In this document: one piece after another, positions 3,572-10,671 of the stretch | Numbering within the stretch: the first letter of the stretch is position 1 | How the letters are laid out: every line of letters begins with the position of its first letter | Assembly: GCA_008080735.1 (NCBI GenBank) | Contig: SHMW01000018.1 | Coordinates: forward strand, 1-57,421 | Origin: Promethearchaeota archaeon | GTDB lineage: Archaea > Asgardarchaeota > Lokiarchaeia > Sigyniarchaeales > SOKP01 | Reading direction: 5' to 3' | DNA: 57,421 nucleotides | Position numbers and translations under genes: made by a program | The notes under the pieces: generated by a model | What the model saw: only the letters and a program-made list of their open reading frames with translations | Told to the model about the DNA's origin: nothing | The model's database searches: none

Positions 3572-4978
3572 TTGGCGAAAAAGGCTTCAAAACCTCCTAA
3601 AGTAGAAAATTTAACTTTTAAAAAATTCTTGCTCACCCTAACCGTGAATAAAATTAAGGACTTAATCAATCTCTATAATGATGATTTCGCTCCGGAAGAA
3701 AATCCCATTAAAAATTATTCTCAATTTCGTAAAAAAGAGCTAATTGAATTTCTCAATGAAAACATCCTCGAAGAAAAAAAAAATATTTTGATTAAAGAAT
3801 TTGAAGAGGATCTTGTTGAAGATTTGGTGATTAGAGCGACTTCATTAATAACCGGAGAGCATAATGTTGAAATTATTAAAAATGCAGCAATAATCGCGGG
3901 AGGAAAAGGATATAATGTGTGGTTTTCAAGTAAATATGCTGCGTTTAAAGCGTCCCTCCATATAGAAAATAATTCCGTGCAGAGATCGTGTAATTGTAAA
4001 ATAGGAAGCTTAGGAGGATTATGTATTCATCAAATGGCAATCTATTTGATGTTGCTAAGTAAAAATGTGATTAATCGAGCCCAAATTCCATTTAATCTTA
4101 ATAAAGAGTTATATAATTCCATCCAAAAACGATTAGAATTACATGCGAGCCAAAAATTGTTTAAAATCGAACCCAGTATTATGTTCGAAGACGGATATAA
4201 AATTTATGTGAATAATAATTTAGTCACCTTAGAATGGGGGGGAGATTTCCCTGGGAAAACAACCAAAGACATATCGAGAAAGGAGGTTGATGTGGATAGG
4301 TGGATATCAGAAAAAGTGACAGATCTAATTGTTAGATACATTAAGGTTAGAAAAAAGGAAGGCAAACCCTCTAAAATGGTTATAGATTCCTATGATATTA
4401 TTTCTAAAATTATGGAATATGAAGATCTAGTTAAAAAAATCCTTAGGAAATTTTCTGCTCTGGCGGATTCAAAACTACCCACAGATGAAAAAAAATTGGA
4501 AAAATACTTGAGAGAGGGTTTAAAAGAATCTTCCATCGATCTCGAGATTGAGCCACCATTTTCTGCATATGAAGGTGAGAAACCTTATATATTTGTGAGT
4601 TATACACATAGAGATAAAGCAGAAGTCTACCCTCTCATAAATAAATTGAATCAAGAGGGGTTTAATATTTGGTACGATGAGGGCATCCACCTAAGTACAG
4701 ATTGGTGCAACACCATTGCTGAAAAGTTAATGGGATGCGCCCTTTTTCTTTCATTCATCTCACCGCATATTAATGAATCAGAAAATTCAAAAGATGAAAT
4801 CTTCCTTGCCACTGAAGAGAACAAACCATTTATCGCCGTATATCTAAAAGAAACAGATTTAGTTCCAGGAATCAAAATGCGAATTCGCAGAATTCAAGGA
4901 ATTATGAAATATGAGATGGATGAATCTAAGGCGTTCGAAAAACTTAAATTAGAAATTGGTCAATTAGTCGCTCAATAA
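3572..4978 (+). CDS. SWIM zinc-finger and TIR domain protein with an N-terminal HeH/Rho_N-like motif
   Basis: SCNC-x8-CIH SWIM motif; C-terminal AYEGEKPYIFVSYTHRD...GFNIWYDEGI...W...SENSKDEI TIR signature; N-terminal LTVNKIKDL...IKNYSQFRKKELIEFL. Confidence 0.85.
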   Translation: MAKKASKPPKVENLTFKKFLLTLTVNKIKDLINLYNDDFAPEENPIKNYSQFRKKELIEFLNENILEEKKNILIKEFEEDLVEDLVIRATSLITGEHNVEIIKNAAIIAGGKGYNVWFSSKYAAFKASLHIENNSVQRSCNCKIGSLGGLCIHQMAIYLMLLSKNVINRAQIPFNLNKELYNSIQKRLELHASQKLFKIEPSIMFEDGYKIYVNNNLVTLEWGGDFPGKTTKDISRKEVDVDRWISEKVTDLIVRYIKVRKKEGKPSKMVIDSYDIISKIMEYEDLVKKILRKFSALADSKLPTDEKKLEKYLREGLKESSIDLEIEPPFSAYEGEKPYIFVSYTHRDKAEVYPLINKLNQEGFNIWYDEGIHLSTDWCNTIAEKLMGCALFLSFISPHINESENSKDEIFLATEENKPFIAVYLKETDLVPGIKMRIRRIQGIMKYEMDESKAFEKLKLEIGQLVAQ

Positions 4979-6216
4979 CTAAACTGCTTTAATCTATCAA
5001 CTGTAGTATACATTTGCCTCCCGCCTTTTCTGAGATAATCCATTGCCTCTTCTATTCCCTCAACGGTTAAATCAAACATCGGGAATATGCTGGCAATGAT
5101 CTTTCTCGTCCATGGCATCCAATCAAAACGGATAACCTCGGGATTTAACCATACCACGTTTTTTGGGAAATGATTCTTAATTTCTTTCAAATAGTAAATG
5201 CCCGGCATCTCGTTGCGGTGATAATAATAAATCGAACCATAACGTTCAGTTAGCTCCCAAGACGCCATAGCAGCATCTCCGACAATTACCACTTTATATT
5301 TATTATCATACTTTTTCAAAAATTCTTCAAATTCAATCGCTTCATCGGGATTTCGCTGGGCGTTCTCATAAAGCTTCTCATAAATGCAGTTATGAAAGTA
5401 ATAATGCTTAAAATCCTTCCAATGAGACATATCATTAGCTGCAGAAAAGATTAGGTTCACTAAATGGGAATATGGAGTCATGCTCCCTCCCACATCCATG
5501 AGAAGAAGCATTTTTACATTATTCTTCCTCCGCTTTTCAAACACCAACTCAATATCTCCCCCATTTTTGGCCGTTTTATCAATGGTTTTATCTATATTCA
5601 GCTCATCTTGTTTTCCAATTTCTTCTAATTTTCTAAGGCGTTTTAAGGCAACCTTGATCTGTCTCGTGTCGAGAACTACATCTTTCCGATAATCTCTAAA
5701 TATACGTTTTTGGGCAATTTGAATAGCCATCCTCATGCCCGTTCCACCCCCTACTCGCATACCCATTGGGTTCTGTCCCCCATGACCAAATTGGGACTGT
5801 CCTTGTGTACCGATCCATTGACTCCCAAAGTTATGCTCCTCATCTTGTTTCCGTAATAACTCCTCAAAATGTTCTTGCAGTTCTTGTATATTAAAATTCA
5901 TATCTAAAAATTCTTGGAACTGTTCTCTGTATTCCGGCGCAATTTCATCGGGCTCGAAAGGTTTCTCCAGCCAATCCCAGATCTCTTGTTTGATCTCATC
6001 TGGAAACTTCAACTGGGCGTTCTTAAAATAGTTCGCAAAAGAGATATCATATACATCAAATTGATGTTCATTTTTACAAAAAATCGACCGTGAGATATAG
6101 TAGAATTCGATCATGTTATTGACTAACCCTTTATCGAGTGCCTCCATGAGTGTCATATATTCCGTTACGCTCACGGGCAATCGCTCCCTCAAATAATAAA
6201 AGAAATCTATAAACAT
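4972..6216 (-). CDS. VWA domain protein (CoxE-like MoxR partner)
   Basis: MIDAS-like MDVGGSM, YYFHNCIYE, IVGDAAM, WLNPE; lies directly downstream of the MoxR ATPase. Confidence 0.92.
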   Translation of the reverse strand: MFIDFFYYLRERLPVSVTEYMTLMEALDKGLVNNMIEFYYISRSIFCKNEHQFDVYDISFANYFKNAQLKFPDEIKQEIWDWLEKPFEPDEIAPEYREQFQEFLDMNFNIQELQEHFEELLRKQDEEHNFGSQWIGTQGQSQFGHGGQNPMGMRVGGGTGMRMAIQIAQKRIFRDYRKDVVLDTRQIKVALKRLRKLEEIGKQDELNIDKTIDKTAKNGGDIELVFEKRRKNNVKMLLLMDVGGSMTPYSHLVNLIFSAANDMSHWKDFKHYYFHNCIYEKLYENAQRNPDEAIEFEEFLKKYDNKYKVVIVGDAAMASWELTERYGSIYYYHRNEMPGIYYLKEIKNHFPKNVVWLNPEVIRFDWMPWTRKIIASIFPMFDLTVEGIEEAMDYLRKGGRQMYTTVDRLKQFSY

Positions 6217-6307
6217 TTCAGAACATCAATTTTTTGGTTTTTTTTTTGCTTTCTTGGTTTTATTTTTGGAATACGTTCATACTCTTAAAAATGAAAAGAT
6301 TGGAAAT

Positions 6308-7189
6308 TTAGGTCGGGAATTTAAGTTTGTCCAACGCTATTTCCAAATCCCGCTCTTTCTTGATTAAAACGCCGAGGAATGGTAATCCTGTTCTTAGCTC
6401 ATTAATTGAAATACCACTCTTTAATAATACCCCAATCCAATCCAATAATTCGGATGTCGAAGGCATTTTTCTAAATTGGGTTATCGCTCGGAGCTGATAA
6501 AACCTCTTTAAACACTGGTCTAAGAGATTCTGTTTCAAGTTCGGATAATGGATATTACAGATATCGGCCATAAACTCTTTGTCTGGAAATTCTATATAAT
6601 GAAACACACATCTCCTTAAAAAGGCATCAGGTAATTCCTTTTCATTATTCGAGGTTATTATCACAATAGGACGATGTTTAGCCTTAATAAACTCATCTGT
6701 TTCCTTAATATAAAATTCCATTACATCTAATTCTTGAAGTAAGTCATTAGGGAATTCTATATCGGCTTTATCAATCTCGTCGATAAGCAGAACCACTTGC
6801 TTATCAGAGTCAAATGCTTGTCCTAATGGTCCGAGCTCAATATAATCGTGGATGTTGTTTACATCTCTCTCTTCAGTGCCAAATCTACTGTCGTTTGATC
6901 CAGAAATTATAATTTAATTCCTGATTAATCTCTGGACAGTATCATATCTGTAAGCACCGTCAATCGCTTCCGTGGTTGATTTGATGTTCCAGACAATCAA
7001 TTTTTTATTTAATGCTTCTGCTATTGCATGGGCAAGGAGGGTCTTTCCCGTTCCAGGCTCCCCTTTGACCAAAAGAGGGCGTCCGAGCGCGATTGACACA
7101 TTGACGATATTTCGTAATTGAGGGTCGGCGATATACTTTACCTTCTCGGTATTTACATTGCCTTGGAATTTATTAAAACTACTACTCAT
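6308..7189 (-). CDS. MoxR-family AAA+ ATPase, predicted join(7189..6925, 6894..6308), 283 aa
   Basis: Walker A GEPGTGKT lies in ORF 6914..7189. Walker B LLIDEIDKAD and TSNNEKELPDAFLRRC lie in ORF 6308..6796. Both are in the same frame; removing 30 nt gives continuous YRYDTVQRLNDSRFGTEERDVNNIHDYIELGPLGQAF. Confidence 0.88.
6895..6924 (-). other. Candidate 30-nt archaeal mRNA intron with a bulge-helix-bulge/loop motif
   Basis: Insert UCAGGAAUUAAAUUAUAAUUUCUGGAUCAA contains in-frame UAA (6916-6914). Fold: 4-bp central helix GAUU/GAUC, 3-nt bulges AAU and AAA, inner stem CAGGAAUU/AAUUUCUG, exon-exon stem UACUGUC/GACAGUA. Confidence 0.8.
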
Positions 7190-7341
7190 AGTTATAAAAG
7201 TTGTGGGAAAATTAAATAATTTTTGATGTTAGCAATAAAGAAGAGATTAAAGTAGAATTGCTTCTAGTTTGCTAGATCATTAACTTGAAAATGCATAGTT
7301 TATGCATAAAAGCATAAATAGATCAAAATATAAATAATTCT

Positions 7342-7905
7342 ATGGGAGGTGGTTCTTATCAGGTTGTCTTATGTGCTAAGGATGAGGAGTTTATTCCGTC
7401 TAAAGCAAAACTAGAACAGTGTTTGGACATTTTGTATAATCACGGAATGTTACGTCTTGAAACGGAGAAAAATTATGATTCTCTGGAGGAAATAATGGGA
7501 AAAAAATGGAGTGAATTTGATTGGGAATTATTTTATTCAGAAGATCAACCAAATTCGGCATATTTTATTGTATACGCGAAAGAGGGGTTTTTCAAGTCAT
7601 TTTATGATAAGATTCTTGAGGAATTGGATCACAAAGATGAAAATGGGTATTGGTATATTGATACTATCTCTTTTATAGATGAATTTTTCATAACCATTTC
7701 TCAGAGATCCCTAACAGGACCTATGGGAATGCCTTTTGATTCAAAATTTGTAATTGCTAATGTATCAATTGGTAATGGTCATTTGCAATACTCAGAAGCT
7801 CAGCAAGTCGCTCAGATATTTAAGGAAACATATTCAGATATTATAAAAGCTCTTGAGAAAGCCCTTGATCAAGAATTAAAAATAATTATAGATTGGGCCG
7901 ATTAG
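7342..7905 (+). CDS. Acidic hypothetical protein
   Basis: 187-aa ORF with ATG start and protein-like composition; no motif recognised. Confidence 0.7.
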   Translation: MGGGSYQVVLCAKDEEFIPSKAKLEQCLDILYNHGMLRLETEKNYDSLEEIMGKKWSEFDWELFYSEDQPNSAYFIVYAKEGFFKSFYDKILEELDHKDENGYWYIDTISFIDEFFITISQRSLTGPMGMPFDSKFVIANVSIGNGHLQYSEAQQVAQIFKETYSDIIKALEKALDQELKIIIDWAD

Positions 7906-9891: not shown

Positions 9892-10671
9892 ATGAAAAAG
9901 AAGGTATGTTTTGCAGGAAAAGGTGGTGTAGGGAAAAGTAGCTGCGTAATCCTCTTTTTAAAATATATTATTGCAAATTTTCCAGAAAGTAAAAAGCTGA
10001 TAATCGATGCGGACCCTGATGCGAATATCCTCGATTTGCTTAACGAATCATTAGGATTATATGGCACGATTGGTGGAGAAATAATTGAACTTAAGAAAAA
10101 AATTGACCGCAAGGAAGTGCCTCCTAATGTATCTGAAAGAAAATTAATTGAAGAGACTATCCTCAAAAATATAAAAAAGAATAGGCAATTCGATGTGGTC
10201 GTTCAAGGAAGAAGAGAAGGAGAAGGTTGTTATTGCTCTGTAAATAATGTTGTCAAAAGCATCATTGATACCTTGGAAGAAATATACCAGTTTGTGATTA
10301 TTGACTCCCCTGCAGGGTTGGAATTCTTCTCAAGAAAAACAGCAAAAGACATTGACGATTTAATTTTAGTAACAGATATGAGTAAGATGAGCTTTCATAC
10401 TATAGAAAGATTGATAGAAATTAAAGAAGAAGTAGAAGCCAAATTCCGAAATATCTGGATATTGGTAAACAAATATAATGCGAATACTAAAGCACCCTTT
10501 ATTAAACGTATTGAAGAGTTTTCTAATGGAGAGGCTCGTTTACTTGGATTTCTAGATTACAACCCCGAAATCCAGAGAATAAATTTTGAAACTAAATCTT
10601 TGCTTGAAATATCTAAGGATAATCCAATTTACCACCAAGCTCAGGAAGTATTTTCCAGTCTTTTTAAATGA
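9892..10671 (+). CDS. cooC: CooC/AcsF-like nickel-insertion ATPase (MinD/ParA class)
   Basis: Deviant Walker A GKGGVGKS, IDADPDAN, EGCYC metal motif, DSPAGLEFFSR. Confidence 0.85.
   Translation: MKKKVCFAGKGGVGKSSCVILFLKYIIANFPESKKLIIDADPDANILDLLNESLGLYGTIGGEIIELKKKIDRKEVPPNVSERKLIEETILKNIKKNRQFDVVVQGRREGEGCYCSVNNVVKSIIDTLEEIYQFVIIDSPAGLEFFSRKTAKDIDDLILVTDMSKMSFHTIERLIEIKEEVEAKFRNIWILVNKYNANTKAPFIKRIEEFSNGEARLLGFLDYNPEIQRINFETKSLLEISKDNPIYHQAQEVFSSLFK

What the first reader, a model, noticed from the sequence alone, without database searches (positions are those of the whole stretch)
6886..6941. Candidate bulge-helix-bulge mRNA intron inside a MoxR ATPase gene
Seen: the two MoxR ORFs are in one frame, separated by 10 extra codons (IRN*IIISGS) inside the conserved YxYDxVxRL^xDS segment. 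The minus-strand RNA folds as exon stem UACUGUC(6941-35)/GACAGUA(6892-86), central 4-bp helix GAUU(6930-27)/GAUC(6900-6897), 3-nt bulge AAU(6926-24), inner stem CAGGAAUU(6923-16)/AAUUUCUG(6908-01), and second bulge AAA(6896-94) opposite an unpaired CAGA (relaxed BHL form). Established: archaeal splicing endonuclease (EndA) cuts after the 2nd nucleotide of each bulge, RtcB ligates, and mRNA introns of this type are known mainly from crenarchaeal cbf5. Applying that rule removes exactly 6924..6895 (30 nt), deletes the stop and yields AGA TTA AAC GAC AGT (RLNDS), a 283-aa intact MoxR. Structure and protein conservation agree independently, and the rest of the gene and its VWA partner are undecayed. 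Inference: tRNA-type splicing of a protein-coding mRNA in a probable Asgard archaeon, possibly a regulatory switch for a chaperone, reminiscent of HAC1/XBP1-type non-spliceosomal splicing. I know of no report of this for a MoxR gene. Gene callers would mis-annotate it as a pseudogene.
Basis: partly seen in the sequence, partly recalled or inferred. Interest (0 to 1): 0.93.

Follow-up and report, generated by a model that had tools for sequence, protein, structure and literature searches.

The report
tRNA-type mini-intron in Asgard MoxR gene
A 30-base hairpin with a stop codon splits a conserved ATPase gene of a Loki-type Asgard archaeon, and comparison with relatives indicates it is an intron cut out of the mRNA by the tRNA-splicing enzymes, which the papers I could search report inside an archaeal coding sequence for one gene only (cbf5).

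Summary

- Nine distinct orthologues (7 genomes in 3 genera, 2 metagenome contig types) carry 14 such 30-32-nt hairpin inserts at three sites: Walker A, RL|NDS (this one), and just after Walker B. About 90 orthologues have none.
- One rule, cutting after nucleotide 2 of the bulge that follows each strand of a 4-bp helix, removes every insert exactly and restores an intact 283-aa protein with its invariant residues.
- The helices covary: 6 of 19 pairs (this intron) and 7 of 13 (the Walker B one) changed on both sides.
- Gene pairs that share an intron have dN/dS 0.02-0.035, so these are not pseudogenes.
- The genome encodes a crenarchaeal-type alpha plus a second EndA subunit and two RtcB ligases.

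Translational bypass, mobile-repeat and artefact readings failed their tests. No RNA-level proof exists, and the "regulatory switch" idea is untested.

Papers I could search report this inside archaeal coding sequences only for cbf5. This scan had already noted similar mini-introns on other DNA: other genes of this genome, and MoxR genes of other Asgard genomes.

The parts
6925..7189 (-). MoxR-like AAA+ ATPase, exon 1 (265 nt; ATG 7189-7187; ends ...AGA UUA A)
   Evidence: ORF and translation; AAA/AAA_5 hits; aligns to residues 1-89 of intact orthologues.
6895..6924 (-). 30-nt mini-intron 'I2' (phase 1, inside the Asn codon of RLNDS); in-frame TAA at 6916-6914
   Evidence: Absent from about 90 orthologues. 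Present at the same site in G005 and in metagenome contigs L120-L123. Excision restores the invariant L and N.
6308..6894 (-). MoxR-like ATPase, exon 2 (587 nt including stop 6310-6308)
   Evidence: Exon 1 plus exon 2 is 852 nt, i.e. 283 codons plus stop, the same as the orthologues.
6927..6930 (-). Central helix H, 5' strand (GAUU, exon 1)
   Evidence: Pairs with 6897-6900. 100% paired in the 3 distinct I2 variants.
6897..6900 (-). Central helix H, 3' strand (GAUC, intron)
6924..6926 (-). 5' bulge AA|U; predicted 5' cut between 6925 and 6924
   Evidence: 3-nt bulge in the MFE. The rule 'cut after bulge nt 2' was validated on relatives whose two bulges differ in sequence.
6893..6896 (-). 3' splice-site loop AA|AC opposite unpaired CAGA (6931-6934); predicted 3' cut between 6895 and 6894. 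This is the relaxed form (4x4 internal loop rather than a 3-nt bulge)
6901..6923 (-). Intron hairpin h' (8-9 bp stem, loop AAAUUAU)
   Evidence: In 5 of its 8 pairs both sides changed among the 3 variants.
6935..6941 (-). Outer exon stem h, 5' arm (UACUGUC; codons of D-T-V)
   Evidence: Pairing is 7/7 in all intron-bearing genes, against 7/7 in only 4 of 78 intronless junction contexts.
6886..6892 (-). Outer exon stem h, 3' arm (GACAGUA; codons of D-S-R)
4972..6216 (-). Downstream VWA (CoxE-like) partner gene, intact
   Evidence: PF05762 hit. Full-length, gap-free match to the partner in G005 and others.

Best explanation
The 30 nt at 6895-6924 (minus strand) are a tRNA-type (bulge-helix-bulge, relaxed HBh' form) intron in the pre-mRNA of a MoxR-like AAA+ ATPase of a Loki-type Asgard archaeon.

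Shown:
- The transcript can fold into a 7-bp exon stem, a 4-bp central helix made of exon 1 and the intron's 3' end, a 3-nt bulge, and an 8-9-bp intron hairpin.
- The fold is conserved by compensatory change.
- Excision at the canonical positions restores the conserved protein.
- The gene stays under strong purifying selection with the intron in place.
- The genome encodes the enzymes required.

Inferred:
- The (alpha-beta)2 splicing endonuclease EndA cuts after the second nucleotide following each strand of the 4-bp helix (6925|6924 and 6895|6894).
- RtcB joins the exons and probably circularises the 30-mer.
- Only the spliced mRNA yields the 283-aa ATPase; unspliced mRNA would give a 91-aa fragment ending ...RLIRN.

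The intron is one of three sister mini-introns (Walker A, RL|NDS, after Walker B) that occur singly or together in this gene in some relatives and are absent from most.
For: (1) Anatomy: the MFE equals the proposed structure, z -3.4.

(2) Same site, diverged copies: I2 occurs in G000, G005/L121/L123 and L120/L122. Of 19 pairs, 96.5% of cells are paired and 6 pairs changed on both sides; slid controls give 23-46% paired.

(3) Sister introns follow the same design:
- I1, 31 nt, in GEPG|TGKT (G005, G043, L120).
- I3, 31-32 nt, in DKAD|IEFP (G003, G005, L120, L121, G074, G108, G109).
- For I3, 7 of 13 pairs changed on both sides, including one pair of the 4-bp helix; 93.8% paired against 18-54% slid.

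(4) One cutting rule yields intact 283-aa ORFs in all 8 full-length interrupted genes. G109, whose gene starts at its contig end, was checked at the I3 junction only. Where the two bulges differ in sequence (I1 of G043 and L120, AA|A versus AG|C; I3 of G109), only the canonical offset restores Thr47 and Asp143, which are invariant in 90 of 90 intact orthologues.

(5) Selection between pairs that share introns:
- G005-L121: dN/dS 0.035 (dS 0.58; 82 nt but 8 aa differences; differences by codon position 10/2/70).
- G000-L120: 0.021.
- G074-G108: 0.033.
At 139 columns that are at least 97% conserved, four interrupted genes have 0, 3, 0 and 0 mismatches. The introns change more slowly than synonymous sites: 1 of 61 nt between G005 and L121.

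(6) Machinery:
- A catalytic EndA alpha most like the A. pernix and S. tokodaii alpha subunits (1.8e-37), aligned without gaps through the N-terminal loop region.
- A second, divergent paralogue.
- Two RtcB copies.
- Asgard EndAs are reported as (alpha-beta)2 with the L1 loop that goes with broad specificity (PMC5829648).

(7) The genome's own tRNA genes are intron-rich, and at least one tRNA intron has the same 4+3+hairpin+4+3 build. A second protein gene, an AMP/thymidine-phosphorylase-like gene at G000:C49 14366-14395, carries a 30-nt insert of the same design restoring DKHST|GGVPGNK.
Against: - No RNA-level data: no spliced read, no circular intron, no cleavage assay.
- The 3' splice site is not a canonical 3-nt bulge but sits in a 4x4 internal loop, so cleavage depends on a broad-specificity enzyme whose range in Asgard has not been measured.
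- My two generic genome-wide motif-plus-ORF scans gave no enrichment over shifted-cut controls (337 vs 317-364; 18 vs 19-30). I therefore could not count such introns independently.
- The covariation rests on few distinct sequences (3 for I2), and these are related.
- Part of the exon stem is favoured by the coding sequence itself: intronless genes already pair 5 of 7 on average.
Confidence: 0.85

Rival explanations
1. Translational bypass (ribosome hopping), as in T4 gene 60 or the 'byp' elements of Magnusiomyces mitochondria. Under this reading the insert stays in the mRNA and the ribosome jumps over it.
For: The inserts are short (30-32 nt), begin near a hairpin and contain stops, as bypass elements do (my own knowledge of gene 60 and byps). 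In G005 the I3 insert is flanked by a 7-nt direct repeat, AUAGAAU, which could offer matched take-off and landing codons.
Against: - Matched take-off and landing codons are missing for I2 (UUA vs UCA) and I1 (GGA vs AGA).
- They fail for I3 in G108 and G109 (AUA vs AUU).
- For I1 of G043 and L120, landing one codon upstream would give Ala instead of Thr47, which is invariant in 90 of 90.
- Bypass does not require pairing between the 5' exon end and the 3' end of the insert, yet that 4-bp helix is kept and covaries (C-G to A-U in I3).
Confidence: 0.05
2. Decaying pseudogene. The hairpin inserts are disabling insertions in a dispensable gene, and nothing removes them.
For: The insert has an in-frame stop, or causes a frameshift at I1 and I3. 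Gene callers split the gene. The gene was not found in about a quarter of the family's genomes.
Against: - dN/dS is 0.02-0.035 between pairs that both carry the inserts, with differences concentrated at third codon positions.
- There is no other stop or frameshift in the eight interrupted genes reconstructed in full.
- Four of them have 0-3 mismatches at 139 conserved columns.
- The inserts themselves evolve by compensatory change and more slowly than synonymous sites.
- The VWA partner is intact.
Confidence: 0.03
3. A mobile palindromic DNA element (MITE-like, site-specific) that inserts repeatedly, or an RNA element removed by some nuclease and ligase other than EndA and RtcB.
For: The distribution is sporadic, with close relatives differing in intron content. 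G005 and L121 differ by I1 at protein distance 0.05, and G043's nearest relatives lack I1. P0002, 93% identical to G000, lacks I2. I1 and I3 share an AUAGA...UCUAC signature. There are short imperfect direct repeats at the insert ends.
Against: - Each insert sequence is single-copy in its genome: I2 in G000, and I3 in G003 and G005 at up to 3 mismatches.
- A covariance model of I1 plus I3 finds nothing significant in G000.
- Purifying selection on the host gene means the insert must be removed from the RNA or skipped, whatever its origin.
- The geometry (4-bp helix, cut 2 nt into the following unpaired nucleotides, on both strands) is exactly that of EndA substrates.
Confidence: 0.05
4. Assembly or sequencing artefact in a metagenome-assembled genome.
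For: The genome is a 140-contig MAG with 7% estimated contamination.
Against: The same insert at the same site, with diverged sequence, appears in an independent genome (G005) and on four contigs from two JGI metagenomes.
Confidence: 0.01

Closest known systems
BHB intron in the cbf5 (pseudouridine synthase) pre-mRNA of Desulfurococcales and Sulfolobales (Watanabe 2002; Yoshinari 2006; Yokobori 2009 = PMC2738675)
   Same: Both are short introns inside a protein-coding sequence with a relaxed BHB-like motif. The cbf5 intron is cut by a hetero-oligomeric (alpha-beta) EndA. Both are sporadically present or absent among relatives.
   Different: The host gene (MoxR-like AAA+ ATPase) and the phylum (Asgard, Loki-type) differ. 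Up to three introns occur in one gene, at three sites, all 30-32 nt. Turnover is seen between very close relatives. There is no RT-PCR or cleavage evidence here, whereas cbf5 splicing was shown experimentally.
[quoted passage not shown]
   Same: The build is identical: 4-bp helix, unpaired nucleotides carrying the cut, and a short intron hairpin. Sizes are similar (ARAGORN reports tRNA introns of about 7-52 nt in this genome, several of 24-31 nt). The enzymes are presumed to be the same.
   Different: The substrate is an mRNA with no tRNA body to help recognition. [quoted passage not shown] The preprint covers tRNA genes only; a term search found no 'mRNA' or 'cbf5' in it.
46-nt BHB intron in the 5' UTR of Haloferax volcanii HVO_1309 (PMC7714728)
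   Same: It is an EndA substrate in an mRNA, shown there by circRNA-seq and in vitro cleavage.
   Different: It lies in the untranslated leader, not in the reading frame. It has a canonical BHB and is cut by a homodimeric euryarchaeal EndA.
HAC1/XBP1 unconventional mRNA splicing (IRE1 cleavage; ligation by Trl1 in yeast or RtcB in metazoa)
   Same: Both are non-spliceosomal removal of a short intron from a coding mRNA at stem-loop-defined sites, with tRNA-ligase joining. The intron blocks production of the full-length protein.
   Different: The nuclease differs (IRE1, not EndA) and so does the motif. HAC1/XBP1 splicing is stress-regulated, and there is no evidence of regulation here.
Translational bypass elements (T4 gene 60; 'byps' of Magnusiomyces mitochondria)
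   Same: Both are short hairpin-bearing inserts with stops inside otherwise intact coding sequences.
   Different: The matched take-off and landing codons that define bypass are absent at I1 and I2 and at I3 of G108 and G109. Pairing across the insert ends covaries, which bypass does not need.

Membership tests
Archaeal EndA/RtcB-spliced (bulge-helix-bulge) intron | 4-bp central helix formed between exon and intron sequence | tested here: met
   GAUU (6930-6927) pairs with GAUC (6900-6897). It is 100% paired in the 3 I2 variants. In I3 one pair of this helix switches from C-G to A-U.
Archaeal EndA/RtcB-spliced (bulge-helix-bulge) intron | Two 3-nt bulges on opposite strands flanking that helix (canonical hBHBh') | tested here: not met
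   The 5' site is a true 3-nt bulge between H and h'. The 3' site lies in a 4x4 internal loop (AAAC opposite CAGA), and the exon helix h is displaced by 4 nt. The motif is therefore the relaxed HBh'/BHL form, a recognised non-canonical class (PMC5829648), not the canonical one.
Archaeal EndA/RtcB-spliced (bulge-helix-bulge) intron | Cuts after the 2nd unpaired nucleotide 3' of each helix strand give a functional product | tested here: met
   The rule removes exactly 30 nt and restores RLNDS. The same rule works for all 14 inserts (eight genes rebuilt in full; G109 checked at its junction). Only this offset restores the invariant T47 and D143 where the two bulges differ. The cut position comes from my knowledge of tRNA BHB substrates, and the papers read confirm one cut in each bulge.
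Archaeal EndA/RtcB-spliced (bulge-helix-bulge) intron | Structure maintained by compensatory substitutions | tested here: met
   I2: 6 of 19 pairs changed on both sides, 96.5% paired. I3: 7 of 13, 93.8%. The sequences are few and related.
Archaeal EndA/RtcB-spliced (bulge-helix-bulge) intron | Host encodes a splicing endonuclease able to cut relaxed motifs, and an RtcB ligase | tested here: met
   Two PF01974 genes. One is crenarchaeal alpha-like and keeps the ...Y..H...K region. The other is divergent and lacks it on inspection. Two RtcB genes. The L1 loop is inferred only from the gap-free alignment to A. pernix alpha and from PMC5829648.
Archaeal EndA/RtcB-spliced (bulge-helix-bulge) intron | Demonstrated cleavage, exon ligation and a circular intron | not testable with these tools
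   No transcriptome is available.
MoxR-like AAA+ ATPase with VWA partner | AAA+ core with Walker A GxxGxGKT and Walker B hhhhDE, AAA_5-type domain, adjacent VWA gene | tested here: met
   GEPGTGKT and LLIDEID are present. The intact orthologue hits AAA (3.6e-13) and AAA_5 (1.1e-11). Public records name homologues 'MoxR family ATPase' or 'AAA family ATPase'. The neighbour is VWA_CoxE. No NCBIfam equivalog reaches its cut-off; the best is MadB family at 110 bits against a cut-off of 475.
Translational bypass element | Identical (or cognate) take-off and landing codons flanking the skipped gap | tested here: not met
   I2: UUA vs UCA. I1: GGA vs AGA. I3 of G108 and G109: AUA vs AUU.
Pseudogene | Relaxed selection (dN/dS near 1, further disabling mutations) | tested here: not met
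   dN/dS is 0.021-0.035 between intron-sharing pairs. There are no other stops or frameshifts.

The most novel reading that the evidence does not exclude
These mini-introns form a dynamic, possibly self-propagating population.
- The Walker A and post-Walker B introns share an AUAGA...UCUAC signature.
- Intron content differs between genes only 5% apart in protein sequence.
- The same sites are occupied in different genera.
- All three sites lie in or beside invariant motif codons.

If the introns move between sites, for example by reversal of the EndA/RtcB reaction followed by reverse transcription and recombination, then protein genes of the closest prokaryotic relatives of eukaryotes are undergoing ongoing intron gain and loss. 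That would be a living model of intron invasion of coding sequences before eukaryogenesis. A further, less likely layer is that splicing is conditional and gates production of the ATPase.
Probability: 0.25. Interest if true: 0.95.

Novelty: new variant of a known kind. Interest (0 to 1): 0.85.

Why it matters
Archaeal protein genes are treated as intron-free. The one published exception inside a coding sequence is cbf5 in Crenarchaeota, plus a 5'-UTR case in Haloferax (PMC2738675, PMC7714728).

Here a single Asgard gene carries up to three tRNA-type introns, kept by selection and turned over between close relatives. The same genome has at least one more such gene. If confirmed at the RNA level:
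- Loki-type Asgard archaea routinely splice mRNAs with the tRNA machinery.
- Gene callers systematically mis-annotate such genes as pseudogenes or fragments.
- Coupled transcription-translation has to coexist with splicing.
- The question of how introns colonise coding sequences becomes testable in prokaryotes related to the eukaryotic ancestor.

This locus is a good test bed. It offers three sites, presence/absence variants, and a 68-nt minimal substrate with predicted cut sites.

Tried and rejected
(1) Generic genome-wide scans of G000 for the design (4-bp helix + 3 nt + hairpin + helix + 3 nt) whose excision fuses open frames. Hits equalled those from shifted-cut controls (337 vs 317-364; 18 vs 19-30). 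Adjacent genes fuse by chance as often, so the scans cannot count introns. One hit inside this window (10544-10580, +) is only a hairpin within an intact 259-aa ORF.

(2) blastn-short of the five intron sequences against G000 found no second copy; the best other match is 16 nt.

(3) Covariance model R1 (I1 + I3) against G000: best E 2.2, nothing credible.

(4) Pattern search for I3's hairpin in five same-genus genomes found only the MoxR sites.

(5) An exact-pattern scan of JGI metagenome contigs for the G000 junction, spliced or unspliced, gave 0 hits. A looser I2 pattern gave the four useful contigs.

(6) The protein database search hoped for a spliced-form product of the G000 population.

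(7) An apparent split of the VWA partner in G001 is a run of 10 N (scaffold gap), not an intron.

(8) NG86 dS was saturated for most pairs, so I used the close intron-sharing pairs instead.

(9) Rfam found no family in 6200-7400.

(10) ARAGORN intron boundaries for the tRNA genes are approximate and were used only as a size and shape comparison.
Full report
**1. The observation**

On the minus strand, window 6308-7189 encodes a MoxR-like AAA+ ATPase. It reads ...YRYDTVQRL-IRN*IIISGS-NDSRFG.... Two ORFs (6914-7189 and the frame continuing to 6308) are in one frame and are separated by ten extra codons with TAA at 6916-6914.

- a 7-bp exon stem (6941-6935 / 6892-6886);
- unpaired CAGA;
- a 4-bp helix, GAUU (6930-6927) with GAUC (6900-6897);
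- a 3-nt bulge AAU (6926-6924);
- an 8-9-bp intron hairpin (6923-6901);
- unpaired AAAC (6896-6893).

The energy is -17.2 kcal/mol against -8.7 ± 2.5 for shuffles (z -3.4).

The two halves hit AAA and AAA_5. The gene downstream (4972-6216, minus strand) is a VWA_CoxE protein. It is full length and 82% identical to its orthologue in a relative. Rfam has nothing in this region.

**2. Organism and machinery**

Relatives of the gene sit in Promethearchaeota/Promethearchaeia (Loki-type Asgard) MAGs. The window's genome has 4.1 Mb, 140 contigs and 34% GC. It has two PF01974 endonuclease genes.
- One (200 aa) is most like the catalytic alpha subunits of the heterotetrameric enzymes of Aeropyrum pernix, Sulfolobus tokodaii and Pyrobaculum (1.8e-37). 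It aligns without gaps from the N-terminal loop region through the ...Y..H...K catalytic region.
- The other (205 aa) is divergent and, on inspection of its sequence, lacks those residues.

This fits the (alpha-beta)2 architecture with the L1 loop reported for Asgard archaea, the enzyme type that cuts relaxed motifs (PMC5829648). Two RtcB ligase genes are present.

ARAGORN finds introns in 16 of its tRNA calls. Several are 24-31 nt long, and at least one (tRNA-Thr GGU) has the same 4 + 3 + hairpin + 4 + 3 build.

**3. Relatives: three sister introns in one gene**

Among 135 genomes of the same family, 103 have the gene, nearly always as an uninterrupted 283-codon frame. Seven genomes do not, and four JGI metagenome contigs add two more gene types.

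| Intron | Site | Length | Carriers |
|---|---|---|---|
| I1 | inside Walker A (GEPG\|TGKT) | 31 nt | G005, G043 (another genus), contigs L120/L122 |
| I2 | RL\|NDS (the finding) | 30 nt | G000, G005, L121/L123, L120/L122 (three distinct sequences) |
| I3 | five codons after Walker B (DKAD\|IEFP) | 31-32 nt | G003, G005, L120, L121; in a third genus G074, G108, G109 |

That makes 14 inserts in 9 distinct genes. G005 and L120 carry all three.

Every insert has the same design: four exon nucleotides, three unpaired nucleotides (A-A/U-N), a 23-25-nt hairpin, four nucleotides complementary to the first four, then unpaired A-N-N.

**4. One rule removes them all**

The rule is to cut after the second unpaired nucleotide that follows each strand of the 4-bp helix. 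It excises 30, 31 or 32 nt. In all eight full-length interrupted genes it leaves an intact 283-codon frame with GEPGTGKT, RLNDS and DKADIEFP restored. G109's gene starts at its contig end, so I checked only its I3 junction, which reads ADIEF after excision.

Often the two bulges begin with the same letters, so neighbouring offsets would give the same product. In I1 of G043 and L120 (AA|A versus AG|C) and in I3 of G109 (AU|A versus AG|A) they differ. There, only the canonical offset gives Thr47 and Asp143, which are invariant in 90 of 90 intact orthologues.

**5. Structure is under selection**

- I2: across the three distinct sequences, 96.5% of 57 cells pair. Six of 19 pairs changed on both sides, five in the intron hairpin and one in the exon stem. 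Sliding the 3' partners by 1-3 columns drops pairing to 23-46%.
- I3: across five sequences, 7 of 13 pairs changed on both sides, including C-G to A-U in the 4-bp helix. Pairing is 93.8% against 18-54% when slid.
- I1 shows the same pattern on inspection.
- The exon stem of I2 is fully paired (7/7) in all intron-bearing genes, against 4 of 78 intronless contexts (mean about 5 of 7). This is modest support, because the codons for D-T-V...D-S are partly self-complementary anyway.

**6. The host gene is alive**

Most pairwise dS values are saturated while dN is 0.08-0.19. The decisive comparisons are pairs that share introns, so that their divergence most parsimoniously happened with the intron in place.

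| Pair | Shared introns | nt differences | aa differences | By codon position | dN/dS |
|---|---|---|---|---|---|
| G005 vs L121 | I2, I3 | 82 | 8 | 10/2/70 | 0.035 (dS 0.58) |
| G000 vs L120 | I2 | 148 | 20 | 20/10/118 | 0.021 |
| G074 vs G108 | I3 | 183 | 41 | not computed | 0.033 |

At 139 alignment columns that are at least 97% conserved in 90 intact orthologues, four interrupted genes show 0, 3, 0 and 0 mismatches. None has any other stop or frameshift. The introns themselves change more slowly than synonymous sites: 1 of 61 intron nucleotides between G005 and L121, against dS 0.58. G000 has no second copy of the gene.

**7. Rivals**

- *Pseudogene.* Contradicted by section 6.
- *Translational bypass.* It needs matched take-off and landing codons. 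These are UUA/UCA at I2, GGA/AGA at I1, and AUA/AUU at I3 of G108 and G109. For G043 and L120 it would put Ala in place of the invariant Thr. It also gives no reason for the covarying 4-bp helix that joins the exon end to the insert's 3' end.
- *Multi-copy mobile DNA hairpin.* Not seen: each insert is unique in its genome, and a covariance model of I1 + I3 finds nothing in G000.
- *Assembly artefact.* Excluded by independent genomes and metagenomes.

**8. What remains inferred**

Cleavage by EndA, ligation by RtcB and a circular 30-mer are all inferences. No RNA data were available.

The 3' site is not a canonical bulge but part of a 4x4 internal loop. The motif is therefore the relaxed HBh'/BHL class, and it depends on a broad-specificity enzyme whose range in Asgard has not been measured. 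One inference of mine bears on it: because archaeal translation can start on nascent RNA, unspliced message would yield a 91-aa fragment, so splicing efficiency must matter for expression.

**9. Turnover and origin**

A protein tree (FastTree, 99 sequences) and the database search give these relations.

| Gene | Nearest relative | Distance / identity | Intron content |
|---|---|---|---|
| G000 | L120 | 0.147 | I2 vs I1 + I2 + I3 |
| G005 | L121 | 0.05 | I1 + I2 + I3 vs I2 + I3 |
| G043 (I1), G074 (I3) | their nearest neighbours | not listed | neighbours are intronless |
| G000 | P0002, the closest database protein | 93% identical | P0002 lacks I2 |

So introns are gained or lost on short time scales.
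- G000's sequence at the empty I1 and I3 sites equals the spliced junctions of its intron-bearing relatives. This is compatible with precise loss.
- I1 and I3 share an AUAGA...UCUAC signature in a gap-free alignment. This hints at common descent or a common constraint.
- I3 in the third genus has an unrelated hairpin sequence at the same phase-0 site. That means either old divergence or independent gain.

**10. Wider context and novelty**

A second protein gene of G000, an AMP/thymidine-phosphorylase-like gene at C49 14366-14395 (minus strand), carries a 30-nt insert of identical design that restores DKHST|GGVPGNK.

Earlier notes of this scan report similar mini-introns in several other genes of this genome, and in MoxR genes of other Asgard genomes at the Walker A and post-Walker B sites. 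These are AI notes, and they agree with what I found independently in relatives.

In the searchable literature:
- Introns inside archaeal coding sequences are reported only for cbf5 of Crenarchaeota (PMC2738675; restated in 2020 by PMC7714728, which adds a 5'-UTR intron in Haloferax).
- The October 2026 preprint on Asgard introns deals with tRNA genes only.

I therefore class this as a new variant of a known kind. The mechanism is known. What is new is the host gene, the lineage, the multiplicity (three sites in one gene) and the dynamics.

**11. Verdict**

I put about 0.85 on a genuine EndA-type spliced mRNA intron. Interest is high, pending RNA-level proof.

Noticed in passing
G000:C49 14366-14395 (minus strand; another contig of the same genome): A 30-nt insert of the same design (UAGC AC|A, hairpin, GCUA AC|A) with several in-frame stops splits DKHST|GGVPGNK of an AMP/thymidine-phosphorylase-like gene. 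Excision by the same rule restores the motif.
   Followed up: partly
L028 (G005) 2271-2308 and 1950-1987; L102 (G043) 2125-2162; L120 2663-2700: The Walker A intron (I1) and the post-Walker B intron (I3) align without gaps and share AUAGA at the 5' end and U.UAC at the 3' end (alignment A7). This may mean common origin or a shared sequence constraint.
   Followed up: partly
L116 (G055:C8, contig end at 17564) and L117 (G044:C290, contig end at 4776): Two assemblies break within about 10 nt of the I3 site of this gene. G044 reads through the site without an intron. This could reflect strain mixtures differing in intron content, or simply a very conserved stretch. It is unexplained.
   Followed up: partly
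P0002 (Logan assembly, 308 aa as called): The closest database relative of the G000 protein (93% identical over the exons) has no insert at the I2 site.
   Followed up: partly
window 10544-10580 (+): A perfect 8-bp hairpin flagged by my scan lies inside an intact 259-aa ORF (9892-10671) and is read through as ...GFLDYNPEIQRINFE.... It is not an intron.
   Followed up: yes
L004 (G001) about 540-550: The VWA partner gene of the intronless relative appears split, but the break is a run of 10 N (scaffold gap).
   Followed up: yes
window 3572-4978 (+): This 468-aa ORF has a C-terminal part (…PYIFVSYTHRDKAEVYPLINKLNQEGFNIWYDEGI…) that looks like a TIR-type domain on inspection. It converges on the VWA gene and was not analysed.
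   Followed up: no
G000:C10 27830-29137 and C1 51843-53150: There are two full-length RtcB ligase genes in one genome (570 and 556 bits). I did not examine whether one is dedicated to a particular substrate class.
   Followed up: no
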